A stretch of DNA of 64,000 bases from Trypanosoma brucei. Taxonomy: Eukaryota. The stretch's first letter is position 1; each line of letters opens with the position of its first letter. Position numbers and translations under genes: made by a program. This document shows, in pieces, positions 31,662 through 59,233 of the stretch. The notes beneath the pieces are model-generated. The model did no database searches, was not told the origin of the DNA, and was given only the letters and a program-made list of their open reading frames with translations. Where the stretch lies: the NCBI GenBank assembly GCA_000002445.1, contig CP000069.1, forward strand, positions 256,001 through 320,000. Direction: 5' to 3'.

Positions 31662-31663
<2 letters not shown>

Positions 31664-31696: not shown

Positions 31697-31698
<2 letters not shown>

Positions 31699-34235: not shown

Positions 34236-35303
34236 AAAAAACCCTAATTTTTATATATTTAAAGAAATATAAACCGGAACAAACAATTTAAAAGGAAGAG
34301 AAAAAGAAAAAGGAAAATTTGGACGAATGAGTGTGGAAGGACTTGCGCTGCTTTTGCATGCCTCTTCCAATACAAACACCCCAACGCACAAATACACACA
34401 CATATTAATATTAATATTAATATATATATATTCTTTCCTGAAGATGCCCCCCCCCAAACAACCCCAATTCTCCTCCCTTCCTCCTTTTTTTCCTTTTGAT
34501 CTTCCAATCAACAAAGGCACACAAAAACAGCAGATATAAACACAAAAATATAAAAGAAAACACAAACATATGTGCGAAAATATTGGACACATATAATGAT
34601 ATATTTCCTTCATTTTTCTTGTTGAAATATTCGTGTCTGTTTAGCCCCGTTTTTTAATTCATTCTCTTTTTAACACCATTCATTACTTTTATTACTATTA
34701 TCAGGTCGCCATCTATTTTCTTTTTTATTTTCTGCTTCTGTTTTTCCTCCTTCTGTGAATTATTGAAAAAGTTAGTGGATTAAAAAGAAAAAAATTAGAA
34801 ACTTTAATACCAACAAAAGCAGGCGTAATAATCACAAACACACAAACACACGCAGTTACATGTACATATATATATATGAAACGTAACAAATGGAAGGAAC
34901 AAAACAAATGAACACAAAACATCAGACATCGAAACCAAAACAAAACAATAAAAACAAGAAAACTATCTAAAAAAAAGAAAAGGAATAAAAGGAGTGATGT
35001 GTTCGGTGTCGCATAACGACGAATGGAGGGGGGAAATATACGGCCGGGATGAGAGAATAGCAATAAATGAAAAAAAAAAACAATTGAAAAGAGAAAAAAG
35101 AAAAAAACAGGCCGTAAGCACATTACTTGTCTTTGTTGGAGGAAAAAAAAGCAAAAAAAAAGAGATGGAAGTTGGGAAAGAGAAAAAAAATTCTCACCAT
35201 CGGAGTGGTGGAGCATGTTCGTTTTTTCTTTCCTGCTGATTTAACTTGATTTGTTTCCCCCTCCTTTGGTTTGTCCTGTTTCATCCTAAAATCTCATAAA
35301 CAT
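34236..35303. repeat. Left copy of a roughly 1.08 kb inverted repeat pair (partner at 58141..59233).
   Basis: By-eye alignment of the reverse complement of 34236-35303 to 58141-59233 shows roughly 97% identity over the full length, with only scattered substitutions and small homopolymer-length differences. It is also visible as near-identical ORF-track translations on opposite strands (34725..35216 minus vs 58246..58734 plus; 34251..34613 minus vs 58857..59054 plus). Confidence 0.9.
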
Positions 35304-35831
35304 ATTTATGTATACACTTATATATATATATATATATACGCGTGCGCATGCGTGTGTTTGTGTTTTACTCTATTCATTCATTTTGCTTTTTGTTTGTTTT
35401 TGGTTTTGGTTTTTCACCATACATCATGATCACACCAGTTGTTTGTTTGTTTACTTTTTTATTATTTTTCATTCCTTTCTGTTATTTTGCTTGTTTGCTC
35501 CTCTTTTACTACTGCCGTAGCATCACTTAGCCTTCACTGTATTGCTTTCTACTGTACACTTCTCGTCTCTTCTACTCCATTCTTCCTCTCTCTCTCTCTC
35601 TCTCTTTTCCTTCATCTTTGCGTATCCCAAGCTTACAGAAGTAGGCCACGACAGTAATAATAATAATAATAATAGTAAACAAAACTTGAGGTTAAAAGGA
35701 GCAGCGTATCTCATTTCTTCGGTTCCTTTCCCTCTGGCGCCTCCACCTTCCTTTTATTATTCATTCCTCATATTTCGTAGAAATCGCATAGCACTTAAAC
35801 GAACAGACGCATGGTACTCAATCCAAGTCAT

Positions 35832-36677
35832 TTAACAGAAGAGATACGACTCCTTTGGAACTGCAGGGCTCAATGGGCGTTCATATCCCGGACCCGCCTG
35901 TCGTGAGCGACGCGCTCCGTTCCGCTGAAAAGCCAAAGCGGCCTCCACATCAATGACAGAATCGCCACTACTGCTTTTAGAACAGTGTCCCTCATCTTCA
36001 CCAGCGCGGCACGATGCTTCCACACAATCCTCAAGGGGATTTTGTCCACTTGTTGGAGCTGAGAATCCCCACAGCGGTGGTTCACTAATGGAAAAGAACT
36101 CCATCATGGCTTCTTCATCGGGGTCAATGCGGTGGGGACGCTCGCGGAATGTAAGCAAAGACGATGGGATATGGGCAGGTGGTGAGGGCTTCCGTACCGT
36201 CATCTTTCCAACAGAAGACCGCCGCAATTCATATGAAGGCGAGGGGACAACACTTAAACTGCCTGCATGACGCTCACACATCTGGTCTGGAGGAACTCCT
36301 GGGCAATGCGGTAGCCGAATGGGCGATAGCGACGGGCAGCTGTTGCGGGCGGCATCATCATCCCTGGAAACATTGGCGTAACGACGAAGTGGATGCTCGC
36401 CACTTGTTGGCAAGCGCTCCAACCATCTTCTGCATCCGTGAGTTTCAACCGTCCTCACCGATGTGGGCGCCTCGGTGTTGCTGTGATGAGTGGCATTTTG
36501 CATGCGCGCTGCATCACCCTTTACGATATCCGGCCCGAAGTGGTCGTGGTGAGCTGCACACTTTGACTCGATACAGTTCATAACTACTGCAATACTATTT
36601 TCTTTCTTTACACTGTGTTTTTTTTCCCCCTTTCGTGAAGCCTGCTTCTTTTTTTTTTTTTTGGGGAGCAACAGCAC
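35832..36677 (-). CDS. Small hypothetical protein, 281 aa by longest ORF. Alternative start is Met33 at 36581, MNCIESKCAAHHD.
   Basis: Complete ORF. The N-terminal KKKKKK is encoded by a poly-T run on the plus strand. A polypyrimidine tract on the coding strand lies at 36790-36860. Cys/His/Pro-rich, with no known motif. Confidence 0.55.
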   Translation of the reverse strand: MLLLPKKKKKKQASRKGEKKHSVKKENSIAVVMNCIESKCAAHHDHFGPDIVKGDAARMQNATHHSNTEAPTSVRTVETHGCRRWLERLPTSGEHPLRRYANVSRDDDAARNSCPSLSPIRLPHCPGVPPDQMCERHAGSLSVVPSPSYELRRSSVGKMTVRKPSPPAHIPSSLLTFRERPHRIDPDEEAMMEFFSISEPPLWGFSAPTSGQNPLEDCVEASCRAGEDEGHCSKSSSGDSVIDVEAALAFQRNGARRSRQAGPGYERPLSPAVPKESYLFC

Positions 36678-37741
36678 GTTACTGGATGTGTGAATGTACC
36701 CAGGTGTTCTCTGTTTTATTTGTTTTTAATATCAGCGAGGAGATGCAGGTGTTAGCGACCTTTCAGAATTTTTTTTACAAAAAAAAAAGCTTCCCCCGTG
36801 GCTGCTGAATGACAAGCAAAAGAAAGAAAAAAAGAAAAGAAAGCAGTTGGGACAAGCGACACTCGTCTTCTTTTCACCAGAAAACGCAAACTTCGACTAA
36901 ACGTAATGAGAATGAGTAGTCCAAGTCTAAATAAGCTGCTTTTTCCCCCTTTTTGTTGGTGTTGATTCGGTTCTCTTCCACCAGTGGAATGGACGTAACG
37001 CCGAAAATGGTCGGATTCACTGATAAAGCACCAGCCGTGTGTTCTCACGGAAACTTTTAACAAAAAAAAAATGGTGTTTCAGATTTATTAATTCACTTTA
37101 CCTCGATTATTTTCCTTTCCTTCCAACTTTTTTTTGTTTTTCTTCCTTTCCTTTCCCTCCCAGTGTTCGTTTTTCTCCCAGCTCACCTCATTCCTCCCTC
37201 ACTATTTTTGACAATCAATTCTTTCTTTTCTTCTTTCCTCGCTGTCAAAAATAATTAAGCTGCGAAAAGAAGGAAAAGAAAAAAAAGAAGAATAGTTCCC
37301 CTCAACTCCTGTATCATCCTCAATTACGTCAGAGGAGTGTGTGCGCAACAAAGTGGGAAACAAAGAGGGAAAGGAGAAAAGTGTCATGTAACGTCTGAAT
37401 GCGCTGCACCCCTAATATATATATATATATACGTTTATGTATAATATTTTCAGTTCCCTCTGTGTGTGTGTGTGTGTGCGTCTTGTTCCCCCATCCTCTT
37501 CGTCTTGTCGGTGTCATAACCATTTACAACTTCAAACGTACTTTGCTTCCCCCTTCCCCCGCCCTTCACAAAGACAGGGACAAAAAGAAACACCCTATAA
37601 GGAGCAAACGTAACCAAAATAACACACACCTAAAACAAATAATGAAAGAAAATAGTGATGAGAATGAGATACGGGGCAACTTAAGGTTTAGGTAAGCTGA
37701 GGAGAGGGGGAAAAAAGAAAAAAGAGGAAAATACAAAGGGT

Positions 37742-40642: not shown

Positions 40643-40689
40643 CCGTGTTAGTAATGTCAATTCTCGGTGCAACGTTGCGGTGCTTGGAA

Positions 40690-41015: not shown

Positions 41016-41016
41016 G

Positions 41017-41057: not shown

Positions 41058-41087
41058 CATGCATACATGTATTGCTGTGCACTCATC

Positions 41088-42194: not shown

Positions 42195-42764
42195 CTAATT
42201 CTTACCAGCGGTGGACTTCGCCTTTGTCTTGCCGGAAGCAACCCTGGCCTTGCGTGCAGCACGGGCCTTCTCGACACGCTTTTTGGCAGCTGGCGTGCTG
42301 TCCACTTTCTTAGCGTTCTTGAGAAGCTTCTTAAGTGCAACCTTGTGCCACGAGACGGGGTTCTTTTTGTCGTTTTCGTCGAAGATCTTGCGTGCCCAGT
42401 AGGCGCGAGACCGCTTGGCAACACGCAGTTGGTAGCGCTCGAAATCAGTCGATTCGGCAAAAGCCTTCTTGGCTGCGATGCGGACAGCAGACTTTGTGGC
42501 GGCGTACTTCTCAAGGACCTTCTTCGACTCGAGCGCCTCCTTTAGTGCCTTGGTGCTGCAGTTACGAGAGATGGAGACACAGAACTTCAGAGGCTCGACG
42601 TTCTTTAGGTTTTGCACGTGACGCCACATCTTTTGCTCGCAAGGATTCTCCACTAAGACGCGGTTGGCGTCAACGATGTCGACTATCACACCGACACGGT
42701 TCTGCCTGGGACCGCGAAGGATGCGCACAAGGCGGCCAGCACGGATGTAGTTTGCCTTCACCAT
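42195..42764 (-). CDS. RPL14: 60S ribosomal protein L14 (eL14), 189 aa, with a Lys/Ala-rich C-terminal extension.
   Basis: The N-terminus MVKANYIRAGRLVRILRGPRQNRVGVIVDIVD is the conserved eL14 KOW-like motif. The basic tail is AAKKRVEKARAARKARVASGKTKAKSTAGKN. Confidence 0.9.
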   Translation of the reverse strand: MVKANYIRAGRLVRILRGPRQNRVGVIVDIVDANRVLVENPCEQKMWRHVQNLKNVEPLKFCVSISRNCSTKALKEALESKKVLEKYAATKSAVRIAAKKAFAESTDFERYQLRVAKRSRAYWARKIFDENDKKNPVSWHKVALKKLLKNAKKVDSTPAAKKRVEKARAARKARVASGKTKAKSTAGKN

Positions 42765-43468
42765 TTCGCGTTGCCGTATGCGGGTGCGCTTTTCCTTGGT
42801 GTCAGAAACCTCTTCCTTTTCCTCTTGTCATCATGGTCAATAAAAGCGGTAGGACATATCATGAAAGAGGGAGTGGGTTGACAGGAGAATGGTTTAAGTT
42901 GTTATCAGGCAACAACTTACAGGGGCGCTCTGTGGGTGGAGTCAGAGATGACATCCACGAGGGAAAGGCAAGTGCATTGCGGGGCCCTAACCGGTTAGTG
43001 CGGGTCGTGAAGTTTTTGCATTGTTCCCCGTTTATTTTTTTTTCCCCCTTTGTTCGATGAACGTGTCCATCACTGTTTCACGAGAAAAGAAAGAAAAATA
43101 TAAGAATTTGCACGGGGTTGCACTTCCACTCTCCAAAAAAAAAACCGACGAGCCAGAATATGATCACAAACCCCGTTCCACAGGTGTATGCAGGCACATA
43201 CACATACACACGCAAAAGAAAAAGCAGCGACACGCTGAAGTACAGCATGTATGAAAGTAGCCCATATCGAATTGGCAAGCGGATGGGGGTGGGGGAGGAG
43301 AGAGCAACGAAACGGGACGGCTGAAATATGTGCAGCAAGAGAAAAAAAAGAACCAAAGTATGCATGGGACGGTAATGCGAGCACGCATTCTCAACATACC
43401 CTTTTGGACACTTTTCCCGTTTCCAAACCTGTCATGCTGTTCTTCCTCAATCCTTTCACCTTCCCCCC

Positions 43469-47442: not shown

Positions 47443-50400
47443 TCACTCCTGCGCAGTGTCCGGCGCTTCCTCGTCTCTAGTGACAAAACCTCCTTCTTCA
47501 GTGACCGGTGCGTTGCCCTCACTCTCACCTGTAGCCTCAGGTCCTTGACTTTCACCATATTCAACACGTTTTTGACCCCCTCCAGCCACTGCGTCGTGTT
47601 CGCCTTCTCCACGCGTAGCAGTCGTCTCGGCCGATAAGAATTGATGGCTGGCGGTATAGCGGTTGAAGACTGCTAAGTTTCCAAGAGAGATGGAAATTTG
47701 CCTCATCTCTGCATCCGTCAAGTCGAAGTTTTCAAATTCATCGATCACCATTTCCGGAATGTCCCCACTACTATCACTGCAAGAGTCAGCTTCCACGTGT
47801 ATATTACCACCTTCCATCACCCTCGACGACCCCGCTTGCTCACCGGTTTCCGAAAATTCACTCTCAGAACTGTCACCTACCACCGTGTTTCCGCTTTTGA
47901 AACTCGCCAGAGGATATCCTATAGCATATGCGATGGCGCATGACAGCTCCTCCGGAAACAGGTCTGCCCGCACCCTATTTATTGAGAGGGCGAGGTAATA
48001 GTCCATGCACTCACGAACATCTCGAAGGCAGGTTGCCACATCAACATTCGTCAAATACATCTTCTTACAATTGTCGAAAAATAGCGCCGCCATGTTTTCA
48101 CTTTCCTTTTCCCCGTTTGGCACATAAGGAAAAACAGGCGTCATCCTACTTTCATGATCTGTAAAAAGTGATGGTGGAATTTCTTTTACCGACTTGACGG
48201 TAAGCTCACGGAGACATAAGGCGAGCTCTACGGGGGTCACCGCTGTGGCATCAAATATCGTGAGGTTGGTCTCAAGGAACATACGTTCGTTAAAAAATAT
48301 AAATGCCCGGTCTCCATATTTATTCTGCCTTTTCCTTGCCAACACAGATGTTGCCGCTAGTTGACAATGCTTGTCATCCCAACAAATAATCTCGGGTTGG
48401 CCTCCACTCCTTTTACTCCGGTACTCCAAAGAAGCGATCCGTGGATAAAGCGACCAAAGAACGACCAAGCGGATCAATCCTAGATTGTCAGAATGTCGAG
48501 AAGCAAATTTCACTGGATTTTTCGTCCTCCGTAGCAACGCAGAGTTCTCAACAAAACGTAGCAGCTGGTTTTTCGTGCGACTTATGGACCGCAGCACCGC
48601 TTGATCAGCGAAATTATGTATTGCATATTCTGGGCTGCACCCAGAACGTTTCCACCCATCAAAGAGTTTAAGGACGGACATGTGGTCCGAAAGAAAACCG
48701 TTGTCAATGGCGTCAACCGCTTTCTGGAGGTCACCCCTTTGATTGGGTGTATTTAAAAAGGGTGATTTCCCCGAAAGGAAGGCCGCGATTGTCGCAACCG
48801 GATCCAAAACACCAAAACAGGCAGCAGCGAGCAGCATTTTGCCCAATAACGGATGAACAGGCAACCTTGACAGCGCTCTACCAAGACTCGTCAACTGTTC
48901 AGCTTCAGGCGTGAACGCACCAATATCCTTCAAGAAATTAGTGGCATGTTTTGTTGAATATTCTGAGGGCACGTCAAGTGCACGGCTGAGAACCTCTACG
49001 CACGTTTCCTCTGGTCTTAAAGCCTTTGCAAGCAGGCAAACTTCCTCCAAGGGGGTTCTCATTATTTCCGGTGGGAGAAACTCAGGTAAAGCCTCATAGG
49101 ATGACCGCGGAAGGAGGTGAATACACACACCTGGTCGGCAACGCCCGGCTCTACCACGACGTTGCAAGCCGTTGGCTCGGCTAATGAATTCTGCTGTTAA
49201 GGCCGACGTGTTTGCTGCGGGATCGTAAGATGAAACTTTCGTGAGGCAACTGTCAACAACATAGACGATGTCGTCAATTGTTATACTCGTCTCGGCTATG
49301 TTAGTTGAAAGCACTACCTTCCGGTAGCCTTTGGGGGCACGGTAAAACACCCGCCGTTGTTCTTCCGCGGTCAGACTAGAATGCAGCTGTAGGACGGACA
49401 ACTCCCTGGACACATTTGACATTCGAATCATGTTTGCCACACGAGATATGGCCTGCCACCCCGGAAGGAAAACAAGTATACTCTCTGACAGATGTTGGGA
49501 ACTTCTGTGAATATGTCCTATAAGCTTAACCACTATGTCGTACGGTACATGGGCCTGTGAGTCAAAGCCCAGTTTCGTGTCAACGGCTTCTTTTATCTTT
49601 TCGTACACCGAGCGCTTTGCCATATCTTCAGTATTGTTACCCGTACTCTGCATTGAAAGTGCATTATTTGGCAATTTCATAGAAGCAAGTGTTGAAAGTG
49701 GCATTTGGAGCCACTGTAAGACATCTTCCATGTAACATTCTCTCACGGGATGCAGTGTCCCTGGTATCTTGATAACTGGTATTGTTTCACCAACGGTAAC
49801 GCCTGAAAAGTACGATATTATTTTCTCAACTTGTATTGTGGCGGACATGACGACTACCTTTATGTGGTTTGCATAGGCCCCTGGATTCCGCCGCTGATCA
49901 ATAATTCGGTCGCGGAGAAGTAACAAGCAAAAATCTGTTTCGACGTCCCTTTCGTGCACCTCATCCACAATGAGACAAGAGACATCGGAAAGCTGTGGAT
50001 CCGTGCGTAGACGACGCAGGAGGATTCCAGTGGTCATGTAAACAATTCTCGTTTCACTGCTTGTTATGTTGTCAAATCGGATGATATATCCACAACTGTT
50101 TCCACACGCTTCACCACGCTCCTCAGACACCCGCTGTGCAACGGAAAGGGCGCTGACCCTTCGCGGTTGGGTACACACTATCTGTAGATCTTTGTTGAAT
50201 ATCCCTGCATCGTACAACATTTGAGGTATTTGAGTAGTTTTACCGCATCCTGTGTCACCACTAATGACAACGATATCGCTTATCTTTACAGCATTGAGAA
50301 TAGCGCCCTGTTGTCGGAAAGCAGGCAATGTTACCCGGAACCTTTGCAACTCCGCATACCGGTGGCGGGGCACTTTGCTAGTCGGGACGTTCCCCAACCC

Positions 50401-51198
50401 GGGTTGCACGACGGTTAACTGTCGACCCCCCTGGCGCTGCTCTCCCCTCAGCTTCAAGTCGCGGAACATCCGCTTAAGGAGTGGCCCCACCAATAGATTG
50501 ATGTTCGAAACTTTAGGTCTGATGTATTCATCAGGAAGCCTCTGAGCCCCTTGGTAACCCTCTGTCCTCACTCGAACCCCGTTAGCAATCAAAAATTGCC
50601 TTCCCTGTTCTTCGCTCGTTTTGTTGAATTTTCTTAGCGTCAGGAAACGCTCGTTCTGCGACCCTGAAGATTTATGGAATAAACCAAAAGTGTGGGCGAA
50701 CTTATGCACCTGCTGGCGACCTGCAGCAGACAGTGTTGGGGGGAACGAGAGCTCATGAGCGGTGGGATCGTCCACAAAGGCCTTTACCATACTTTGAAGG
50801 TGCTTTTTCAGACGCTTAAAATTCTCAGGGAATCCAATACCTTTTTGATTGTCGACAATGTCCAACACGCCGCGCTTTGTGTCGGAGTTATCGGACGCAG
50901 GCATATTCTCGCACTTTTGTCGAGAATCATTTCCCCTAGGTAAGGAATTGGTGAACTCCTGCTGAACTGGAGCACGTGGCAACAAAACGGGCGGCCACCA
51001 AACACCACCGGGCATCGGAAGTGGATGACCGTACATCGGGGCAGGTGGGAAGAAGCCCGGTGAGCACGCAGCCCTAACGGAGGCATGGGGCAACATTTGT
51101 TGCAGTTGTGAGGCCTGAGGGCTGCCACCCATCGGGAAGCGACGTATGTTCGCATCAACTGTTTGATGCTTCCCGCCTTCGCATCGCTTCTGGTTCAT
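47443..51198 (-). CDS. ATP-dependent RNA helicase of the DEAH/RHA family with an N-terminal R3H domain, 1251 aa.
   Basis: The R3H-like segment is VLDIVDNQKGIGFPENFKRL...LSFPPTLSAAGRQQVHKFAHTFGLFHKSSGSQNERFLTLRKF. Helicase motifs are ISGDTGCGKTTQIPQ (motif I), LIVDEVHERD (motif II, DEVH) and VVVMSATIQ (motif III). A downstream HA2/OB-like region is followed by a Ser/Glu-rich acidic tail. Confidence 0.85.
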   Translation of the reverse strand: MNQKRCEGGKHQTVDANIRRFPMGGSPQASQLQQMLPHASVRAACSPGFFPPAPMYGHPLPMPGGVWWPPVLLPRAPVQQEFTNSLPRGNDSRQKCENMPASDNSDTKRGVLDIVDNQKGIGFPENFKRLKKHLQSMVKAFVDDPTAHELSFPPTLSAAGRQQVHKFAHTFGLFHKSSGSQNERFLTLRKFNKTSEEQGRQFLIANGVRVRTEGYQGAQRLPDEYIRPKVSNINLLVGPLLKRMFRDLKLRGEQRQGGRQLTVVQPGLGNVPTSKVPRHRYAELQRFRVTLPAFRQQGAILNAVKISDIVVISGDTGCGKTTQIPQMLYDAGIFNKDLQIVCTQPRRVSALSVAQRVSEERGEACGNSCGYIIRFDNITSSETRIVYMTTGILLRRLRTDPQLSDVSCLIVDEVHERDVETDFCLLLLRDRIIDQRRNPGAYANHIKVVVMSATIQVEKIISYFSGVTVGETIPVIKIPGTLHPVRECYMEDVLQWLQMPLSTLASMKLPNNALSMQSTGNNTEDMAKRSVYEKIKEAVDTKLGFDSQAHVPYDIVVKLIGHIHRSSQHLSESILVFLPGWQAISRVANMIRMSNVSRELSVLQLHSSLTAEEQRRVFYRAPKGYRKVVLSTNIAETSITIDDIVYVVDSCLTKVSSYDPAANTSALTAEFISRANGLQRRGRAGRCRPGVCIHLLPRSSYEALPEFLPPEIMRTPLEEVCLLAKALRPEETCVEVLSRALDVPSEYSTKHATNFLKDIGAFTPEAEQLTSLGRALSRLPVHPLLGKMLLAAACFGVLDPVATIAAFLSGKSPFLNTPNQRGDLQKAVDAIDNGFLSDHMSVLKLFDGWKRSGCSPEYAIHNFADQAVLRSISRTKNQLLRFVENSALLRRTKNPVKFASRHSDNLGLIRLVVLWSLYPRIASLEYRSKRSGGQPEIICWDDKHCQLAATSVLARKRQNKYGDRAFIFFNERMFLETNLTIFDATAVTPVELALCLRELTVKSVKEIPPSLFTDHESRMTPVFPYVPNGEKESENMAALFFDNCKKMYLTNVDVATCLRDVRECMDYYLALSINRVRADLFPEELSCAIAYAIGYPLASFKSGNTVVGDSSESEFSETGEQAGSSRVMEGGNIHVEADSCSDSSGDIPEMVIDEFENFDLTDAEMRQISISLGNLAVFNRYTASHQFLSAETTATRGEGEHDAVAGGGQKRVEYGESQGPEATGESEGNAPVTEEGGFVTRDEEAPDTAQE

Positions 51199-51413
51199 GA
51201 CAGGACCAGTATCTATAACAAGAACAAAGCAAGCAACGAGCCTCTGCGCGCCTTCCTTTCCTTTAACAAGGGGAAAGGATCAGAAAGGCAGACAAAAATT
51301 CAGCAGAATTCGAATGAAAACAGAGGGCAGATGTTGGCGGTGTCACAAGCAAACGCGGTAAAGAACTTATCACAACATCTACACAATTAGCGCTCGATAC
51401 ACACGAGAAACAC

Positions 51414-52538
51414 TCACAAGTCGTCTAGAACATCGTTCTTTCCCTTAGTGGTTTGACGCTGGTTGTACTCCTCGACGGCATGTTGTAGCTCTTCCAAAAA
51501 CAGTGTGTCATTTAAAAAATCTTCCAGCGTTCCGTTTCGTCGAGCGTCAGACGCAAGAACCTCATGTAGCACAACCTCTTCCTCGACACCGTCACCAGAA
51601 CTATAGGAAGTCACAGTTATCTCGAGGGCAGCGATGTTTCCGTACATCCAACGGCTCATGCCCACGTCTATAGCAATCACGCTGCCTCCACAAAAAGTTT
51701 CCACTCTCCCTGAGCGTTGGGGAGTGTGACCCACAACCACCCGTTTTACCCCCAGTGAAGCGAGCGCTTTTTTTGTATCGGCACAACGACCATTTGAAGC
51801 ATCAAGGAACATCTTTCGGGACCACAAAGGACCGGTTGAACCCAAAAGGATATGACCAAAATTTTTTGTACGTATCGCCTGCTTGGCTTCCCGGTTTAGC
51901 CTCTCAATTCCATCGGAAACAACATGTTCGTCAATGCCAGCATGAACAAATAAGGTATCGGCGACAGCATACGCTACTGTGAAATTTTCTAAAATAAATC
52001 CTCCGAACGTGCCGTCGAGTTCAAACGCGCGCTTGCGCAACGCCCTTGTCAAAAACCCACCCATAGATTTTGAATGGACATAATGAAAGTGACCCTGAAG
52101 ATTTAGAAGCTCGTGATTTCCCATAAGCAGAACTACTTTGTCATCAGTGTAGTTCGTGCGCACCTCATTAAAAAGCGAAACAGCCATCTCAAGTACCTCC
52201 AAATCTTCCTCACCTCTATCAATCAAATCTCCAGTTTGTATTAGGGTTGTCCGCAATCGTGTGCCGTATTCCCTAAAGAAGTTACCTTCCTTAGTCCCCC
52301 ATCTGGGCTTCCACACCACTTGTTTACTACTGTTAGAACGTAGGCTAATGACGCCGGACATCTCAAGGATTTGCCGAAAACGCTCGGCATCTCCATGCAC
52401 ATCTCCGACGGCCACAATACGGTGTATTTCAATGGGAATGACATTCCTGCTAAGGGGGTTTGCGTCTACATTAGCACAACATCGTATGCCCAAATGTGCA
52501 ACCAGAACTAGCGAAATTAACAAGTATTTCCCCACCAT
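51414..52538 (-). CDS. Shewanella-like (bacterial-type) PPP serine/threonine phosphatase with an N-terminal signal peptide, 374 aa.
   Basis: The signal peptide is MVGKYLLISLVLVAHLGIRCCA. Metallophosphatase motifs are AVGDVHGD, GDLIDRG, GNHE and VGHTP. It is the first (5'-most) gene of the minus-strand transcription unit in this window. Confidence 0.8.
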   Translation of the reverse strand: MVGKYLLISLVLVAHLGIRCCANVDANPLSRNVIPIEIHRIVAVGDVHGDAERFRQILEMSGVISLRSNSSKQVVWKPRWGTKEGNFFREYGTRLRTTLIQTGDLIDRGEEDLEVLEMAVSLFNEVRTNYTDDKVVLLMGNHELLNLQGHFHYVHSKSMGGFLTRALRKRAFELDGTFGGFILENFTVAYAVADTLFVHAGIDEHVVSDGIERLNREAKQAIRTKNFGHILLGSTGPLWSRKMFLDASNGRCADTKKALASLGVKRVVVGHTPQRSGRVETFCGGSVIAIDVGMSRWMYGNIAALEITVTSYSSGDGVEEEVVLHEVLASDARRNGTLEDFLNDTLFLEELQHAVEEYNQRQTTKGKNDVLDDL

Positions 52539-52599
52539 TAAAGACGGCTAAAGTATTAAACTGTCTGGTACACAACACGATATTTTGTGTCAATACGAA

Positions 52600-55500
52600 A
52601 CACCTTAGATATTAGAAGTCGAGAAGGACATCATACGAGAACTGAAGGCAGGAGAAGGTTGAAAACACAAAAACAGCCCACAATCAGACAAATACTGAGT
52701 GAACAAGGCACCATTAGCACAGTTCGTAATGTCCTTAACGTAATAGGGATGACTCCTTTGCTGACACAAACACATGGTCGAAGACAAATCATTGCACAAG
52801 ATGCGCACCCCTGGCACTGGAAAGGCGCTAGTGCAGTTACCTGGACTGGGGCTCTCTCTCTCCCCCCCAAACGAAACCAAGTTGTTGAGCAGCATCAGGT
52901 GTTGAGACTCACACACTCATTATTGTTCGGATGCTGGCACATGTCCATAATCACAAATAATAAAAAAGTTATCTGTCACCACCTTCAGAGGCCATACCTG
53001 CCGACATTTGTTTCCTCATTTTTAAAAAGTTCCCTCGACATAAAAGGAGGATTTAAGCACGGAGGTGTTGTTACAATTGGAGCCGGGGCTAGTTGCACCC
53101 GGCTCGAAAGTGATGTGACCGACAAACCTCCGACTACGGCCCTCTTATGCAAACAAAGCACCACGGGCATGGTACAAGTAGTCAAGTGAAGCTCTAACAA
53201 TAACAATCATAATAGAGTATTACTGTATCTATTTGGTTCTTCGCGAGACTCTCGGCATCACTTGCGAGCACAGAAAAACAAGCGGAAACCCATAGCATTC
53301 TCAGCATTTAACATGCTTCCAAGGGCGGATCTTTTGATGTGCATTCATTTAAATAAGAAAAGATCCCAGATCGTGCGTTCATGACACATGGTGACGTTGG
53401 CAATAGCCAGCTAAGCCGGAGGACATGGTTCATTTTTGTATTTCGACCCTTTCAACTTAAAAAAGAATTAGCACTCTATGACCGCGGCTAATCACGGCGA
53501 AAACACAAATTCATTTCATTTGATTCATTTCTTAGCGCGCTCTTCACCCATGCGCCCCCACCTCTGCGCCACTCCCATTTCGCACTATTCTTAGTGGTGT
53601 AAAGGTTGTGGGGGTGGGTCGTTCCCCAGCAACACATCCTGGGCTTACAAACAGGGTTATGGGCTAAAAATGCACTCCAGCGACCGTGTGAACCGAATCA
53701 ATTGCCCACAGCTCGCCGGAAGTTTGCAGCTTCCGACGGAACTTGCAAACGGAGAAAGCCGTCCGGACGACAACCAGTAAATATGTCACTAGGGGCGGAC
53801 AAACAAATAAGTAAAGGTTTCTACCACTTTCATTCACTTTCCACCCCTTTCCCCACCGCGTTGCTCAATCTGTCATTATATCAATATCCGGCATCACCTG
53901 CACAGCGACGAGATGTGCTCAACACCGTTACACTTGACGGATCGCAGTGACACGGGTGATTGACTCTCGAGCTCGCAGTTGGTGGCATTAGCGGCTGTCC
54001 CGCGTTATTGTTCACTAAACGGGGTCACTGATCTCCCTGACGCTCCTATCAATACGCATCAGAGGACAGCGTACATCGGCCTTCTTTTTCTTTGGAAACG
54101 GAAAAGGTAAACGAGGAAAGAACGAAGATGATAAAATCTGCGGGTTCGCAAGTGGATTTATGGAGCAGAACCAATTTGCTGACCTTCAATATTGTTCACC
54201 TCCTACAGCAAAGCGGAAACGGCATTACATCTCCTGCCTTAGCTATTCAGTGAGAGTTTGTTCCACTACTGGTGAGAGAATGGATCATTCCATTGTTCTC
54301 CCTTGTTGTGTATGATGTAGTGCGCTTATTTGTTTTTCGAGACACCCATTCAATTGATACCTTTTTAGGCGAAATAATCGTTTCAATCTTTAGCAACCTT
54401 ACTTTGATGCTTTCTCTTCCTCCCTCTTGCTATTCTTTTCGTTGCAGTCAAGTGATCACGCGGAAAATGAATCGATTGATGCAGGGCTTTTGTTTCAGTT
54501 GCAGCCGGCTTTGCCTAAGCATGGTGGCATGAACAATGGAGCGACAACACCTCTTTCACGTCGTGTGCACTTCGACCGTACATTCTCTGAACTTTCGTTG
54601 CATTTCCCCTTCTTTATCAGTGAACAATTCTCACCATACGCTTGACTGGAACATTTTGGAGGTGATAGTGTGATGTTACGCAATACACAGCCGAATCCAA
54701 ACACTCTATTAGCGTTGGGCTCGTGTTAACGGCTTCCGGTGAACGATCAGTACTATCTGAATATCACCCTCGGGAAGCTGATCGAGAGTGTTGCCATGTG
54801 CCACAGCAGTATAATATCCGTATTTCAGGCAGGTTCTTCCCCCTTTCGTTTGTGCAGGTAACGCAAAGAAGTGTTTCAACCCTCTTTCTAGAAGGTGTGT
54901 CAGAACATTTCTTTGCGTACTTGTGGTGTCGGGAGAACACGACCCGCCGGAGTTCCTCTGTATGTTTTGGAAGTGATGCCCTCCCCAGAGTGTTTTGTGC
55001 TTCCTATTCTCTTCTATACCACCACAACCGTGAAGTTGTCGATGTGCCACGCCAGGCGTAACCGCGGCATAATGTTGCTCTCGCTATTCTTTCCCTCTGT
55101 TTTTTCACTTTACCATTTATTCTGCAGAATGAAAAGCAGCGAATCGTTCCGTTGGTACTGCCTTTTTTGTTGCTAATTTTGGTGCGCATTTCTATATACG
55201 TCGCGACCCTCCCTCTCCACTACTGTGGGGCCCTTTTTTTTTGTGACAGCAATGAAAGAGACAATGGCTCGGCGAAAATTGTCGTTCTCCTTCGGCTTTT
55301 TGGTCGCTCCATTACAGTGCGGAAAACCGTTGAAAATTCGCTTTCAACTGCCATACCTTCCGCACGGCAACTGCATGTTGCTTTGCCTGTTCCAAGGAAA
55401 TAATCCATCGTTAGTTCCTCATTCCTCAGTGGTATTGAGGTTCTGGTCCTTGGTGAATCGTCCAGCATTTCCATTTCACCTATCTAAACATGCCAGTCAA

Positions 55501-57800
55501 ATTTCCTGAGTCTTATCACCTTTCTTATTCTTTGCGCTTTTCATCACCTATGGCATCTGCTTTCAGCACCCAGATGCTGCACAATCGGAGGAGGACATCC
55601 TCGCTAACAAGAGGTATTCAACTTTACGTGGTTTCTCCAATCTGTCAAAATTATCGTAACGCCCCCCCTTTTCATTGCGCTTTTACACCTGGCGTTCCTA
55701 TAGGAAAAGCTGCCTCTGCATCTGCTCAAAGAAGATGCTTTTTTACTTAGAGGGATAGGGAGGGGGCTAACACTCTCCTGAATGCAACGCCTGCTCCAGT
55801 TATGAGCGTGGCTCCTTTTTGTATGGCCTCCTCATTCGCTGCCTTTGGCAAAGCAGACATCGTGTGTGCAGCTTGCGCACGCATGCGACCACGAATATTG
55901 CGGTGTGGAGGTGACGGCAAATACTAACGGAAAATCGCGGCACAGCAAATTTCCCCATTGCGTAACACGTCAGCGATGTGACCCGATCTCAGTGATCCCT
56001 CTCTCCAACCCTGCTCTATAGGTGAGACGGCCCCAGCCGCAGTAGTCTTCGTGGTTCTTTTGTTGCCCCCTTTGTGAACTTCACTACTTCGAATGACTAA
56101 AGCACTAGGCTAATTAGCTTCGGTCACTTCCCCCTACATTTTCGTAATCCGTGTGGAGGTTATGGGCGTCGGCACGCCTGATCCCAAGGCACACAAATCT
56201 CTTTTCCTCAGTTAATACGTCCAAATAGTGTTGCGTTAAGCACTGGGTGACACACCCTACTCGTTACTCTTGCATATCGTCGACATTTTCCAGATCCATG
56301 TCATTGGGCGTGGTCGTGGGATCCTCTGAAAAGAGCCTACCGCGAAACTCCGAAATGCTACCTCGTCTTCTGTTGAGGGATTACACCCCAACCGTGTATA
56401 AGATTGGCATCTGAGCCAACCCTTGCGATGTTCTGCAGGTTACGGATACAGTTTCTAACCACGTGTCGCCAATCTCCACTTGGGGTCTTGAAGTGAACAA
56501 CAACTGTCGCATCCACTTCGTCGGCTGGAAATATATTTTCCAGCGATCTAGCGCCAAAATCATACGTGCATGCTCTACCGGGCTCAATGTTATCAGATAG
56601 CTCAGAAACATCACTACCGCCTCCCCTCCTCCTTGCCCGCCGGCTTATTACACCAAGCGGCTGTGCCATAGCACTCGTTGATGGGCACTTGAAGCCCTGG
56701 CCGCTGTGGCTAAGGTGAGGCGTCCCGTTTATTCTTCAGTTTCTCAGTGTCTTTCTTTCCATTAGCTTGCAGGGGCCGCCTGTTACGGTCACTGGCCGCG
56801 GTCGCGCCACCTATGTCGCAGCCTTGTTTGTCTCCAAGGTCGGTGTTAAAATGCCCTTCCCTCCGCCGTTTCGCCATGGCGTTGGGCCCAGCGCACCAGT
56901 TATTATTTCCAGGGAGGTCCTGTCCCTCTTTCCGCTCGAGATCCTGCAATTTATCTCCATGCTTATGATCCGCCCCCGGTGCCGCCCCTTTAGCAAATTC
57001 ACTTACAGCTGACTTTCGTTTAGCTCGCGATGAGAGGGCATGACCGTGCGGTTGTTTGCTGGCGGCGATCCGCTATTTGGGGGGTGGGGGCGGATCGGCC
57101 TCTCTGTGGGATTCTTGGAGAGTAGCTCTGTGGGTACGCTCGCCTCCACTCCGCTCGTTGTTTCTCCTTTTCGGTAGGCGTTGACTGGTCGCCGGTACCC
57201 GCGTGCGCGGCGCGTCTCCGCTCCGGACTCACCCTGGTCAAGCGAATTGACACCGTTTCGAGTGCTGTTGGGGGTTAGGTGCCCAGAGGGCCGTTACCGC
57301 CCTTTGGCGGGTGTGGCGGGGTCGCTTCAGCTTCCTTACGGGCTCGGAGCAGTGCCGTTGCCGAGCGGTACGCTTGTACGCATTCTGCGGGGTGGTAAAA
57401 CCCTTTGTTTTCATTGCATATTGGCCCATGATCACGAGGGTTGATGGTTGTAGCAAAGGGACGGTGCAATTTAAGCGCGCGCGCAGGGGGACCATATATC
57501 AAAACATATCTGTGAGTTTAAACGACTTCACAAGTGCTGCTCCTAGTGATTTTTTAAGTACCTGGGGAAGTATTTGGGTCCTCGAGCCGGTAAGTGTGTT
57601 GGGTTGCTCCCCCTACTGTGTGGTTCTTGATCCCCTAGTGGTGCGGATAAATGGACGCCTGACTAGAGAGACCGGCCGTAGCGTTGTCGTTCTTTTGACT
57701 TTCTTTAGATCTGACAAGATGCCACTTGTTCAGTTGGGTGCGCTGACTGTTTGACTTCTGCCTCACGGCCCCAACAATCCCTGTGACAGTTAGAAAAAAA
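52600..57800. other. ORF-poor block of complex, non-low-complexity sequence about 5.2 kb long. Candidate degenerate retroelement (ingi/DIRE-like) or decayed pseudogene(s). No intact coding capacity.
   Basis: Base composition and k-mer complexity look like coding DNA, unlike the pyrimidine/purine-tract intergenic regions elsewhere. The longest ORFs are 60 to 200 aa in all six frames, with no recognisable motifs. Its size matches ingi-family elements (about 5.2 kb), but no RT or endonuclease motif was recognised by eye. Confidence 0.3.
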
Positions 57801-58140
57801 AACTGAGGAAATCTTATGCGAGACATGATGTCGGGACGATCATTCATTACCGATTACCGACTCAGTAGCATTGCCGTGTCGGTATATCGGACAACTTTAC
57901 CGAATCAACCCTCTGTACGAAAACTAAAGACCCAATAAATCACCTATCTTGCAAATCCGTGACGTTCGTCGTTTAGATATTTAATACTTCTCGTTACTAA
58001 ACACGACACTCTTAGGACTGCAGAAGCATAACATTTTACATAAAAGCCAACAGCCCCCCCCAAAAAAAAAAATTAAATTGAAGTCGTTGCCCTAGCAAAA
58101 GGCGAAAACAATGCCAAACTCTAAGAAACTTGCAGATATA

Positions 58141-59233
58141 AATATATTTATGAGATTTTAGGATGAAACGGGACAAACCAAAGGAGGGGGAAACAAATCA
58201 AGTTAAATCAGAAGGAAAAAAAAACGAACAAGCTCCACCACTCCGATGGTGAGAATTTATTTCTCTTTCCCAACTTCCATCTCTTTTTTCTTTGCTTTTT
58301 TTTCTTTTTTTTTCCTCCAACAAAGACAAGTAATGTGCTTACGGCCTGTTTTTTTCATTTTTCTCTTTTCAATTGTTTTTTTTTCATTTATTGCTATTCT
58401 CTCATCCCGGCCGTATATTTCCCCCCTCCATTCGTCGTTATGCGACACCGAACGCATCACCCCTTTTATTCCTTTTCTTTTTTTTTTTAGAGAGTTTTCT
58501 TGTTTTTATTATTTTGTTTTGGTTTCGATGTCTGATGTTTTGTGTTCATTTGTTTTGTTCTTCCCATTTGTTGCGTTTCATATATATATATATGTACATG
58601 TAACTGCGTGTGTTTGTGTGTTTGTGATTATTACGCCTGCTTTTGTTGATATTAAAGTTTCTAATTTTTTTCTTTTTAATCCACTAACTTTTTCAATAAT
58701 TCACAGAAGGAAGAAAAACAGAAGCAGAAAATAAAAAGAAAAAAGAAAAGAAAAGAGATGGCGACCTGATAATAGTAATAAAAGTAATGAATGGTGTTAA
58801 AAAGAGAATGAATTAAAAAACGGGGCTAAACAGACACGAATATTTCAGCAAGAAAAATGAAGGAAATATATCATTATATGTGTCCAATATTTTCGCACAT
58901 ATGTTTGTGCTTTCTTTTATATTTTTGTGTTTATATCTGCTGTTTTTGTGTGCCTTTGTTGATTGGAAGATCAAAAGGAAAAAAAAGGAGGAAGGGAGGA
59001 GAATTGGGGTTGTTTGGGGGGGGGCATCTTCAGGAAAGAATATATATATATTAATATTAATATTAATATGTGTGTGTATTTGTGCGTTGGGGTGTTTGTA
59101 TTGGAAGAGGCATGCAAAAGCAGCGCAAGTCCTTCCACACTCATTCGTCCAAATTTTCCTTTTTCTTTTTCTTTTCCTTTTAAATTGTTTGTTCCGGTTT
59201 ATATTTCTTTAAATATATAAAAGTTAGGGGTTT
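58141..59233. repeat. Right copy of the inverted repeat pair, ending about 0.8 to 0.95 kb upstream of the adenylate cyclase CDS.
   Basis: Same alignment as above. The boundaries are where similarity decays, at about 58141 (tttatgagattttagg) and about 59233 (aaatatataaaagttagggg). Confidence 0.9.

What the first reader, a model, noticed from the sequence alone, without database searches (positions are those of the whole stretch)
34236..59233. About 1.08 kb, about 97% identical inverted repeat pair bracketing 23 kb that spans the strand-switch region
The two copies (34236-35303 and 58141-59233) are in opposite genomic orientation but in the same orientation relative to local transcription (minus-strand unit for the left copy, plus-strand unit for the right copy). 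The left copy sits in the middle of a 7.3 kb gene-free low-complexity interval. The right copy ends about 0.8 kb upstream of the GRESAG4 adenylate cyclase CDS. Identity this high implies very recent duplication or ongoing gene conversion. Inverted homologous segments flanking a divergent strand-switch region are a substrate for recombination-mediated inversion of the intervening 23 kb, which holds the 5' end of the minus-strand unit plus the putative transcription start region. Alternatively the element could be a conserved UTR or regulatory module shared by two transcripts, or a dispersed repeat family member.
Basis: seen in the sequence. Interest (0 to 1): 0.75.

Follow-up and report, generated by a model that had tools for sequence, protein, structure and literature searches.

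The report
Non-coding inverted duplicate flanking a strand-switch region
A real 1.1 kb stretch of non-coding DNA is present twice, in opposite orientation, on either side of a transcription start region on Trypanosoma brucei chromosome 6; it behaves like an ordinary, strain-variable low-copy repeat, and no assembly examined shows the DNA between the copies flipped.

Summary
Window 34238-35309 and 59233-58138 form one colinear inverted repeat: 1100 alignment columns, 95.2% identity with gaps, 98.0% counting substitutions only. It is the only long repeat in the window. The window is T. brucei TREU927 chromosome 6, positions 256001-320000. The left copy lies between Tb927.6.690 and .680. The right copy lies between the divergent strand-switch region and the Tb927.6.760-800 GRESAG4 array, 39 bp from the array's repeat boundary. 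The unit is non-coding: its ORFs shift frame between copies, have no homologues, and match no RNA family. Both sites are occupied in four T. brucei-group assemblies, so the duplication predates their split. It is therefore not "very recent": the two copies differ as much as alleles of one site do. The right copy is dimorphic. It is long in TREU927 and apparently in T. equiperdum OVI. In T. b. gambiense DAL972 and T. b. equiperdum IVM-t1 a 779 bp centre is missing between 13 nt direct repeats. A mosaic OVI right copy hints at occasional exchange between the two sites. The 22.8 kb between the copies has the same orientation in every informative assembly. At least 773 such intergenic repeats were already reported in T. 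brucei (Ubeda 2014). Verdict: an ordinary member of a known class, of low interest.

The parts
34238..35309 (-). Left copy of the 1.1 kb unit (1072 nt), sense strand = minus. It lies in the 7.4 kb AT-rich interval between Tb927.6.690 and Tb927.6.680.
   Evidence: BLASTN; alignments. The orthologous full-length copy is in T. b. equiperdum IVM-t1 at L006 11275-12374. Partial copies, cut by an assembly gap or a contig end, are in DAL972 (L002 15346-15638) and OVI (L007 1461-1612).
58138..59233 (+). Right copy of the unit (1096 nt), sense strand = plus. It lies between the divergent strand-switch region and the first GRESAG4 gene.
   Evidence: BLASTN. The flanks are colinear with DAL972 and IVM-t1. 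The OVI contig L010 ends inside it.
58379..59157 (+). The 779 bp centre of the right copy. It is present in TREU927 and apparently in OVI, and absent from DAL972 and IVM-t1. Its boundaries are ambiguous by about 13 nt because of the flanking direct repeat.
   Evidence: Orthologous alignments break at window 58378 and 59158 in both DAL972 and IVM-t1. The junction reads CAATTGT|TTGTTCC in the short form. OVI reads CAATTG followed by T8, as in the long form.
58366..58378 (+). Direct repeat TTTTCAATTGTTT at the 5' edge of the polymorphic centre (same motif in the left copy at 35078-35090, minus strand).
   Evidence: Pattern positions; junction.
59178..59190 (+). Direct repeat TTTTAAATTGTTT at the 3' edge of the polymorphic centre (same motif in the left copy at 34281-34293, minus strand).
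   Evidence: Pattern positions; junction.
35132..35165 (-). Polypyrimidine tract (35165->35138) and first downstream AG (35132) inside the left copy. This is the first such tract after the predominant Tb927.6.690 poly(A) site at window 35577. It is a candidate generic trans-splicing/polyadenylation signal (inferred, not shown).
   Evidence: Tract scan; sequence 35577->35309 read; poly(A) site from Kolev 2010 Table S13.
58280..58325 (+). The equivalent polypyrimidine tract (58280-58318) and first AG (58324) in the right copy.
35832..36581 (-). Context: Tb927.6.690 (249 aa hypothetical protein, AAZ11633), the gene immediately upstream of the left copy.
   Evidence: Exact protein match.
27275..28336 (-). 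Context: Tb927.6.680 (353 aa, AAZ11632), the next gene downstream of the left copy.
   Evidence: Exact protein match.
51414..52538 (-). Context: Tb927.6.750 (serine/threonine phosphatase, AAZ11639), the first annotated gene of the minus-strand transcription unit.
   Evidence: Kolev 2010 Table S14.
52725..54089 (-). Context: novel transcript Tb6.NT.32 (chr6 310089->308725). It shows that minus-strand transcription starts beyond 54.1 kb.
   Evidence: Kolev 2010 Table S7, with the offset of 256000 derived.
59272..63829 (+). Context: start of the GRESAG4 tandem-array repeat unit (spacer from 59272) and the first cyclase CDS, Tb927.6.760 (annotated ATG 60098, stop 63829).
   Evidence: The spacer recurs upstream of later array copies in DAL972 from the window-59272 equivalent; Pfam; homologues.

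Best explanation
The pair is a low-copy, non-coding segmental duplication. About 1.1 kb of T-rich intergenic DNA is present at two sites 22.8 kb apart on T. brucei chromosome 6, in inverted chromosomal orientation but in the same orientation relative to transcription. The duplication arose before the sampled T. brucei-group lineages diverged (shown). Since then the two copies have evolved roughly as neutral sequence (inferred). The right copy lost its 779 bp centre in the haplotype carried by DAL972 and IVM-t1, most simply by deletion between the 13 nt direct repeats TTTT[C/A]AATTGTTT (inferred; I put it at about 60:40 against the alternative that a short right copy was re-extended from the left copy by gap repair). 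The copies probably exchange short tracts occasionally by ectopic gene conversion (suggested, not proven). I find no evidence that the unit encodes a protein or a structured RNA, or that it is required as a regulatory module. Like any trypanosome intergenic segment it carries polypyrimidine-AG signals. In the left copy these are positioned to be the signal coupled to the predominant poly(A) site of Tb927.6.690 (inferred). As a pair of homologous inverted segments it could in principle support recombination, but the interval has not inverted in any assembly examined.
For: Real and unique within the window. Organism and locus: all ten window proteins tested match TREU927 accessions AAZ11631-39 exactly. 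Coordinates chr6 256001-320000 follow from Kolev 2010 Table S13. Non-coding: the 163 and 162 aa ORFs are Phe-rich and run in different frames over about 70 codons, because the indels between copies are 1, 11, 2, 3 and 2 nt. A unit ORF has no homologue among 5.8 billion proteins. TREU927 accession numbers are consecutive across both sites, so nothing is annotated there. There are no Rfam matches at gathering score, and only chance-level hits at E<=1, and no tRNAs. Age: both sites are occupied in DAL972, IVM-t1 and OVI. Unit positions 9 and 33 are fixed site-specific differences. Left-right divergence is 13/795 in the centre and 8/228 in the 5' part, against 15/772 and 8/228 for TREU_L versus TeqIVM_L. 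TREU_R is closer to TeqIVM_L (10/788) than to TREU_L. Flanking orthologous divergence is 0.6-1.0%. Dispensable centre: colinear alignments break at 58378/59158 in two assemblies, with direct repeats at the junction. Not an assembly artefact: TREU_R has private substitutions and right-site-specific states, and OVI independently reads into the long form. No inversion. No mobile-element hallmarks. The class is already known: Ubeda 2014 reports at least 773 intergenic direct or inverted repeats in T. brucei.
Against: Genome-wide copy number could not be measured, because no T. brucei genome is searchable by DNA with these tools. A larger dispersed family is therefore not excluded. Both copies share orientation relative to transcription, and the right copy abuts the GRESAG4 array boundary to within 39 bp; this could reflect function or a specific origin rather than chance. 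The folding energy of the sense strand is lower than that of 20 shuffles (z = -3.7), although segregated U-rich and A/G-rich blocks explain this without any specific structure. Evidence on transcripts comes from one procyclic-form dataset only. Only three assemblies are informative about inversion, and DAL972 was ordered against the TREU927 reference. Low-frequency isomers within a population would not appear in consensus assemblies.
Confidence: 0.72

Rival explanations
1. Recombination substrate with real consequences. The two arms recombine, inverting the 22.8 kb cassette that holds the bidirectional transcription start region and eight genes, or generating palindromic or linear products as described for inverted repeats in Leishmania. 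Because both arms have the same orientation relative to transcription and flank a divergent start region, an inversion would leave every gene co-directional with transcription and so should be tolerated.
For: In TREU927 there is about 1.07 kb at 98% substitution identity. The geometry holds. Mosaicism of the OVI right copy suggests the two sites do interact. Ubeda 2014 obtained PCR products for predicted rearrangements at four other T. brucei repeat pairs. Jackson 2010 reports 55 and 110 kb segmental inversions on chromosome 10 between subspecies.
Against: IVM-t1 (36.7 kb with no gaps), DAL972 (within one contig) and the OVI right-hand junction all have the TREU927 orientation. In two of four lineages the right arm is reduced to about 244 + 41-76 nt. 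No read-level data were available.
Confidence: 0.1
2. Functional RNA-processing or regulatory module shared by two transcription units. The unit would supply a polypyrimidine/AG trans-splice acceptor and the coupled upstream poly(A) signal, or a UTR element, or GT-rich start-region sequence, and would be kept similar at both sites by selection.
For: Both copies have the same orientation relative to transcription. The first polypyrimidine tract after the predominant Tb927.6.690 poly(A) site (window 35577) is inside the left copy, at 35165-35138 with an AG at 35132. The same tract lies about 1.8 kb upstream of the cyclase ATG in the right copy. Table S13's averaged 3' UTR of 3483 nt with dispersion 3229 implies that some Tb927.6.690-assigned poly(A) sites lie about 6.7 kb downstream, so a long isoform could include the left copy.
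Against: The 779 bp centre of the right copy is absent in DAL972 and IVM-t1. Between strains the left copy is about twice as diverged (about 2%) as its surroundings (0.6-1.0%) and full of indels, the opposite of constraint. Kolev 2010 called no novel transcript over either copy. The predominant Tb927.6.690 mRNA ends 268 nt before the unit. Polypyrimidine tracts are generic in trypanosome intergenic DNA.
Confidence: 0.12
3. Member, or carrier, of a mobile or dispersed repeat family. Either the whole unit is mobile, or the 779 bp centre is an insertion flanked by an 8 nt target-site-like duplication (AAACAATT on the reverse strand, next to an A-run). It would have been acquired at the left site and copied to the right site in the TREU927/OVI lineage.
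For: Direct repeats flank the centre, and on the reverse strand the centre ends in A9-11. The centre is a presence/absence polymorphism at the right site.
Against: The centre has no terminal inverted repeats (score 5). It shows no similarity to the Pr77 hallmark of the ingi/RIME/L1Tc clade beyond shuffled controls, though I supplied that hallmark from memory. There is no target-site duplication or A-tail at the outer edges of the unit. No coding capacity was found. No further copy occurs in the 64 kb window or in L001, a paralogous GRESAG4 locus. An A-run next to a short repeat is expected by chance in 32% GC, T-rich DNA.
Confidence: 0.05
4. Assembly artefact: the long right copy in TREU927 is a mis-join in which reads from the left copy (or its other allele) were placed between the short right-site homologies.
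For: Among the complete right sites, only TREU927 shows the long form. TREU_R's centre is closer to another strain's left copy than to TREU_L.
Against: TREU_R has its own private substitutions in the centre (3) and differs from every left haplotype sampled. For example it has T where the TeqIVM/Tbg left haplotype has C, and the A in GAACAAGC. It carries right-site-specific states contiguous with the unique flank. The independent OVI contig runs from 15 kb of unique right-flank sequence into the unit and continues as the long form, sharing the GAACAAGC state.
Confidence: 0.03

Closest known systems
Intergenic direct/inverted repeated sequences of trypanosomatids (Ubeda et al. 2014, PLoS Biol 12:e1001868, PMC4028189; Leishmania repeat alignment groups, and the '773 intergenic repeated sequences' those authors report for T. 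brucei)
   Same: It is a low-copy, non-coding repeat pair on one chromosome, in inverted orientation, lying in intergenic DNA and bracketing a block of genes. It is a potential substrate for homologous recombination.
   Different: This pair was not one of the four T. brucei pairs they tested (chr2, chr3, chr6 Tb.6.170-6.230, chr7), and their full list is not available here. In Leishmania many such repeats derive from SIDER retroposons and yield replicating amplicons. Here no retroposon hallmark was found, no rearrangement product has been looked for, and the authors note that T. brucei does not maintain amplicons.
Segmental duplications, indels and inversions that distinguish T. b. brucei 927 from T. 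b. gambiense DAL972 (Jackson et al. 2010, PMC2854126)
   Same: It is a strain-polymorphic structural difference (779 bp indel) next to a tandem gene array and a strand-switch region, the categories that paper names as the main sources of intraspecific variation.
   Different: The variants described there mostly involve genes, ingi/RIME elements or VSG/ESAG islands. This one is purely non-coding, small, and not mentioned in that paper's text. The left site falls in a DAL972 assembly gap, so it could not have been compared there.
ingi/RIME/DIRE (and Leishmania SIDER) retroposons
   Same: It is dispersed, non-coding repeated DNA in trypanosome intergenic regions and near strand-switch regions. 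The polymorphic centre is flanked by a short direct repeat next to an A-run.
   Different: There is no Pr77-like 5' hallmark, no A-tail or target-site duplication at the unit's edges, no ORF remnants, and only two sites seen.
Inverted-repeat siRNA loci of T. brucei (known to me from Tschudi et al. 2012, BMC Genomics, which I did not retrieve; related discussion is in PMC4721609, found but not read)
   Same: It consists of inverted repeats in the core genome.
   Different: The siRNA-generating loci need both arms on one transcript so that they fold into dsRNA. Here the arms lie in two divergent transcription units, and both are transcribed (if at all) in the same sense of the element, so no hairpin RNA or sense/antisense pair is expected. 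This is inference from geometry; small-RNA data were not examined.

Membership tests
Trypanosomatid low-copy intergenic inverted-repeat pairs (Ubeda 2014 class) | Two homologous copies on the same chromosome in inverted orientation | tested here: met
   Single minus-strand HSP, 34238-35309 against 59233-58138.
Trypanosomatid low-copy intergenic inverted-repeat pairs (Ubeda 2014 class) | Copies lie in non-coding, intergenic DNA | tested here: met
   The ORFs are frame-shifted between copies. There is no protein homologue. Nothing is annotated between AAZ11632/33 or AAZ11639/40.
Trypanosomatid low-copy intergenic inverted-repeat pairs (Ubeda 2014 class) | Rearrangement products at the repeats detectable by sensitive PCR | not testable with these tools
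   This needs wet-lab PCR or raw long reads. Consensus assemblies show only the parental arrangement.
Trypanosomatid low-copy intergenic inverted-repeat pairs (Ubeda 2014 class) | Listed among the 773 T. brucei repeats of that study | not testable with these tools
   The held supplements give only the four PCR-tested pairs; this pair is not among them.
ingi/RIME/DIRE/SIDER retroposons | Conserved ~77-79 nt 5' hallmark (Pr77-like) | tested here: not met
   Local alignment score is 8-9, against a shuffled mean of 8.1 and maximum of 12. Caveat: the Pr77 sequence was supplied from memory.
ingi/RIME/DIRE/SIDER retroposons | 3' A-rich tail and target-site duplication at the element's edges | tested here: not met
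   The unit's edges show no duplication or A-tail. Only the internal 779 bp centre has a short flanking direct repeat.
ingi/RIME/DIRE/SIDER retroposons | Many dispersed genomic copies | tested here: inconclusive
   No extra copy occurs in the 64 kb window or in L001, a non-orthologous GRESAG4 locus. The whole genome is not searchable here.
Invertible DNA segment (both orientations exist) | The alternative orientation of the bracketed segment is observed in some genome or read set | tested here: not met
   IVM-t1 (gap-free 36.7 kb), the DAL972 contig and the OVI right junction all have the TREU927 orientation. Low-frequency isomers were not tested.
Shared UTR / cis-regulatory module | Lies within the mature mRNA of the neighbouring gene | tested here: inconclusive
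   The left copy begins 268 nt beyond the predominant Tb927.6.690 poly(A) site, but distal sites exist. No splice-site data are held for Tb927.6.760.
Shared UTR / cis-regulatory module | Sequence conservation above the local background | tested here: not met
   The centre is deleted at the right site in two lineages. Between strains the left copy is about 2% diverged, against 0.6-1.0% for its flanks.
Protein-coding gene | Reading frame preserved between copies, and homologues elsewhere | tested here: not met
Known structured RNA (Rfam 15) | Match at or above a family's gathering score | tested here: not met
   There are no hits at gathering score. The best permissive hits score 13-21 bits against thresholds of 95-100.

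The most novel reading that the evidence does not exclude
The two copies are active recombination partners across a divergent strand-switch region. They exchange sequence by ectopic gene conversion: the OVI right copy is a mosaic, and the long right-hand form would have been rebuilt from the left copy. Because both arms face the same way relative to transcription, they could also flip the 22.8 kb cassette that carries the bidirectional start region. That would move eight housekeeping genes from one polycistronic unit to the other without ever placing a gene antisense. Such a 'transcription-neutral' inversion polymorphism would be segregating in T. brucei populations at a frequency that consensus assemblies miss.
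Probability: 0.05. Interest if true: 0.55.

Novelty: new member of a known kind. Interest (0 to 1): 0.2.

Why it matters
It matters little in itself. Low-copy intergenic repeats are common in T. brucei, and nothing here points to a coding, RNA or regulatory role. The findings have modest practical value. (1) The 779 bp indel upstream of the Tb927.6.760 GRESAG4 array is a clean, PCR-scorable structural marker. It separates TREU927/OVI-type haplotypes from DAL972/IVM-t1-type haplotypes. (2) The pair breaks short-read and older assemblies: the DAL972 gap and both OVI contig ends fall inside it. Variant calls and read mapping in chr6 290.2-291.3 kb and 314.1-315.2 kb should therefore be treated with care. 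(3) If junction PCR ever showed the inverted isomer, the locus would be a convenient natural test of whether polycistronic unit membership matters for gene expression in trypanosomes.

Tried and rejected
- Coding gene inside the repeat: rejected. The ORFs are frame-shifted and low-complexity and have no homologue.
- Decayed GRESAG4 or other pseudogene in the ORF-free 53-58 kb stretch next to the right copy: rejected. A six-frame comparison with 25 cyclases and 13 window proteins found nothing.
- General association with GRESAG4 upstream regions: rejected for the one paralogous locus available (L001). Within the array the recurring spacer starts only at 59272, after the unit.
- tRNA, snRNA or other RNA gene at the strand-switch region or in the unit: none found.
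- Larger ancient duplication with decayed flanks: rejected. A sensitive BLASTN of 2.5 kb flanks gave only chance-level hits.
- Copy-number estimate through ORF calls in public protein collections: led nowhere, because no such ORF is called anywhere.
- Exact-protein look-ups for the TREU927 locus itself: these failed because TREU927 gene positions are not indexed. I got round this by using proteins identical in, or specific to, DAL972, IVM-t1 and OVI.
- Splice-site tables: the Siegel 2010 supplements are not held, Nilsson 2010 has no entries for these genes, and the Kolev Table S4/S12 text was truncated before chromosome 6.
- RNA folding: z = -3.7. I judged it uninformative, because it rests on 20 shuffles and the long U-runs can pair with the A/G-runs.
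- Metagenome, viral and prokaryote DNA scans: not run, because those collections do not contain trypanosome genomes.

Full report
**1. The observation**

A self-comparison of the window gives one long match. Positions 34238-35309 align to 59233-58138 in reverse orientation as a single colinear alignment. It has 1100 columns, 21 mismatches and 10 gap openings, giving 95.2% identity. Counting substitutions only, identity is 98.0%. The repeat finder sees the same pair as five ungapped blocks. All other self-matches are low-complexity and 64 columns or shorter.

The alignment runs through complex sequence as well as T-runs. It ends abruptly on both sides, and a sensitive search of 2.5 kb of flank on each side finds nothing further. 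The arms are 22,828 bp apart.

**2. Where this is**

Ten window proteins were looked up and all match T. brucei brucei TREU927 accessions AAZ11631-AAZ11639 exactly. The products include Rrp45, alanyl-tRNA synthetase, dephospho-CoA kinase, RPL14, a DEAH helicase and a Ser/Thr phosphatase. The 1243 aa cyclase heads the Tb927.6.760-800 GRESAG4 array (Jackson 2010).

Kolev et al. 2010 (PMC2936537), Table S13, give the predominant poly(A) site of Tb927.6.690 as chr6 291577, with a 255 nt UTR. That puts the stop codon at 291832, which is window 35832. The window is therefore chr6 256001-320000, and the RPL14 entry confirms this offset. Table S14 of the same paper lists Tb927.6.750->.560 (minus) and Tb927.6.760->.800 (plus) as a divergent pair of polymerase II units. 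The only novel transcript in the window, Tb6.NT.32, maps to window 54089->52725 on the minus strand.

- The left copy lies inside the minus-strand unit. It starts 522 nt after the Tb927.6.690 stop codon, within a 7.4 kb interval of about 30% GC.
- The right copy lies between the start region and the first plus-strand gene, 864 nt before the annotated cyclase ATG.

**3. It is non-coding**

Each copy has an ATG ORF of 162-163 aa, but the translations are Phe-rich and low in complexity. They also run in different frames for about 70 codons, because the copies differ by indels of 1, 11, 2, 3 and 2 nt inside the ORF. These ORFs stay open only because T-rich DNA rarely makes stop codons.

A more complex ORF from the unit has no homologue among 5.8 billion proteins. 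TREU927 accession numbers run consecutively across both sites, so nothing is annotated there. There are no tRNAs and no Rfam matches at gathering score. A permissive scan of the right copy gives only hits of 13-21 bits against thresholds of 95-100.

The sense strand folds better than 20 shuffles (z = -3.7). I attribute this to long U-runs pairing with long A/G-runs and do not count it as evidence of structure.

**4. Comparison with other strains**

I recovered orthologous DNA through exact-protein look-ups:

- T. b. gambiense DAL972: L002, L005, L008, L009.
- T. b. equiperdum IVM-t1, free of N runs: L004, L006.
- T. equiperdum OVI draft contigs: L003, L007, L010.

*Left site.* A full-length unit is present in IVM-t1 at L006 11275-12374. 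In DAL972 the copy is cut after unit position 293 by an N gap that swallows the equivalent of window 30417-35024. In OVI it is cut at position 152 by the contig end.

*Right site.* In DAL972 and IVM-t1 the orthologous alignment is colinear up to window 58378 and resumes at 59158. About 779 bp are absent, and these strains retain only unit positions 1-244 and the last 41-76 nt. The junction reads CAATTGT|TTGTTCC. In the long form the missing segment is bracketed by the direct repeats TTTTCAATTGTTT (58366-58378) and TTTTAAATTGTTT (59178-59190).

The OVI contig L010 matches window 42727-58383 at 99.4% and ends inside the unit with CAATTG followed by eight T's. That is the long-form continuation and not the short-form one.

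The duplication is therefore older than the divergence of these lineages, and the right copy is dimorphic.

**5. Age and exchange between the copies**

Substitution differences:

| Comparison | Centre | 5' part |
|---|---|---|
| TREU927 left vs right | 13/795 (1.64%) | 8/228 (3.5%) |
| TREU_L vs TeqIVM_L (left-site orthologues) | 15/772 (1.94%) | 8/228 (3.5%) |
| TREU_R vs TeqIVM_L | 10/788 (1.27%) | 7/239 (2.9%) |

Private changes in the centre number 10 for TREU_L, 3 for TREU_R and 5 for TeqIVM_L. Flanking orthologous divergence is about 0.6-1.0%. Only unit positions 9 and 33 separate all left copies from all right copies. The copies are thus about as different as alleles, which does not fit a "very recent" duplication.

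With OVI added, the markers along the first 250 nt are incompatible with a single tree. OVI_R has the right-site states at positions 9 and 33, and it shares the A of GAACAAGC with TREU_R only. It also carries the 13 nt deletion and the T7-C-T6 arrangement otherwise found only in the TREU927-type left haplotype.

All four marker combinations occur, so there has been either ectopic conversion between the sites or recurrent slippage. Because the markers lie in poly-T tracts at the end of a draft contig, I rate this as suggestive only.

The polarity of the 779 bp difference is also open. The simplest history is deletion between the direct repeats in the DAL972/IVM-t1 haplotype; these two share an extra derived state, GGGGA. 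Re-extension of a short right copy by gap repair from the left copy would leave the same pattern.

**6. Inversion**

Joining L004 and L006 (identical 5165 bp overlap) gives 36.7 kb of IVM-t1 without gaps. It is colinear, on the same strand, with window 26000-63000. The DAL972 contig is colinear from the cyclase through to the start of the left copy. The OVI contig shows the parental right-hand junction.

No assembly shows the inverted arrangement. DAL972 contigs were ordered on the TREU927 reference, so only continuity within a contig counts as independent evidence there. Consensus assemblies also cannot exclude rare isomers.

I note as an inference that an inversion here would keep every gene co-directional with transcription. 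The arms flank a divergent start region and face the same way relative to transcription, so selection against an inversion need not be strong.

**7. Relation to transcripts and to the array**

The predominant Tb927.6.690 mRNA ends at window 35577, 268 nt before the left copy. The stretch between them is purine-rich. The first polypyrimidine tract after that site is inside the unit (35165-35138), followed by an AG at 35132. The unit could therefore supply the generic polypyrimidine signal that couples polyadenylation and trans-splicing in trypanosomes. This rests on established knowledge of kinetoplastid mRNA processing plus inference; it is not shown here.

Table S13's averaged UTR of 3483 nt with dispersion 3229 implies additional poly(A) sites near window 29.1 kb, so a long isoform containing the left copy is possible. 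No novel transcript was called over either copy.

In DAL972 the spacer that recurs between array copies starts at the equivalent of window 59272. The right copy therefore ends 39 bp before the tandem-repeat boundary.

**8. What it is not**

The unit and its centre lack terminal inverted repeats, outer target-site duplications and an A-tail. They show no similarity to the Pr77 hallmark of ingi/RIME-type retroposons, though I supplied that hallmark from memory. No third copy exists in the window or in L001, a paralogous GRESAG4 locus. The ORF-free 53-58 kb stretch is not a decayed cyclase or a copy of any window gene.

An assembly artefact in TREU927 is unlikely. TREU_R has private substitutions and right-site-specific states, and OVI independently supports the long form.

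**9. Comparison with what is known**

Ubeda et al. 2014 (PMC4028189) report at least 773 intergenic direct or inverted repeats in T. brucei. They also report PCR-detectable rearrangements at four tested pairs, none of which is this one. Jackson et al. 2010 (PMC2854126) name segmental duplications, tandem arrays and strand-switch regions as the main sites of brucei/gambiense structural variation.

This pair fits that class. I found no description of this specific pair or of its 779 bp dimorphism, but I could not check the full repeat list.

**10. Verdict**

It is best explained as an old (pre-divergence), neutral, non-coding inverted duplication. It has a strain-specific internal deletion and possibly exchanges sequence occasionally between its two sites. 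It is a new member of a known kind. Interest is 0.2.

The most novel reading still open, active exchange plus a transcription-neutral inversion polymorphism, has a probability of about 0.05. It would need read-level or PCR evidence.

Noticed in passing
L009 8495-13659 (DAL972 chr6 scaffold FN554969.1, about 132,996-138,160): A 5.2 kb contig bounded by N gaps on both sides repeats 688 bp of the unique sequence upstream of the right copy, the short unit, the spacer and a cyclase CDS annotated as a fragment. Its leading 507 bp is 99.6% identical to the first array member's upstream region. It is either a real extra array member carrying 'unique' upstream DNA, or a redundant or alternative-haplotype contig placed by reference-guided scaffolding.
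   Followed up: partly
L002 15639-15740 (equivalent to window 30417-35024): The DAL972 assembly has an N gap that removes about 4.6 kb of the AT-rich interval, including most of the left copy. Both OVI contigs that reach the unit (L007, L010) also end inside it. The repeat and the low-complexity interval evidently break assemblies.
   Followed up: yes
Relatives of window 60098-63829 (P0004, P0029): Two proteins labelled Schistosoma mansoni (Smp_112590, 1254 aa; Smp_186530, 49 aa) appear among the GRESAG4 relatives. P0004 is 76% identical to the window's cyclase in the homologue search, and P0029 is a member of the 90%-identity cluster. They sit on 17 kb and 5 kb contigs and are almost certainly trypanosome contamination in that assembly.
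   Followed up: no
L006 5488-10001 (IVM-t1): No gene is called where alanyl-tRNA synthetase should be in the IVM-t1 long-read assembly, although the DNA is colinear with the window. Frameshift errors in that assembly are the likely cause.
   Followed up: no
window 59158-63000: The first cyclase gene and its spacer are 94.7% identical to IVM-t1 but 98.1% identical to DAL972, while the adjacent unique DNA is about 98.3-98.8% in both. This suggests paralogue shuffling or conversion within the GRESAG4 array in IVM-t1, or a different array member in first position.
   Followed up: no
window 52725-54089 (-): Kolev 2010's novel transcript Tb6.NT.32 (1364 nt, 2.71 RNAs per cell) lies in the strand-switch region upstream of the phosphatase gene. 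The remaining 54.1-58.1 kb has about 50% GC and no ORF longer than about 150 aa, and no similarity to any window protein or cyclase.
   Followed up: partly
window 34238-35309 compared with L006 11275-12374: Between TREU927 and IVM-t1 the left copy is about twice as diverged in substitutions (about 2%) as the surrounding intergenic DNA (0.6-1.0%). It differs by many indels, including a (TA)n expansion of about 24 nt and an 18 nt TTAATA-repeat deletion in IVM-t1. At least two deep left-site haplotypes exist (TREU927/OVI type and IVM-t1/DAL972 type).
   Followed up: partly
window 6000-11000, 14000-17000 and 28500-35800: The minus-strand unit contains three long intervals of about 30% GC with no genes. 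They share only short microsatellite-like matches. Kolev Table S13 gives Tb927.6.640 a 4.2 kb predominant 3' UTR, so very long UTRs may account for at least some of them.
   Followed up: no
window 58138-59137 (+): The minimum free energy of the sense strand is 3.7 SD below 20 dinucleotide shuffles. This is probably because segregated U-rich and A/G-rich blocks pair with each other, but I did not dissect it further.
   Followed up: no
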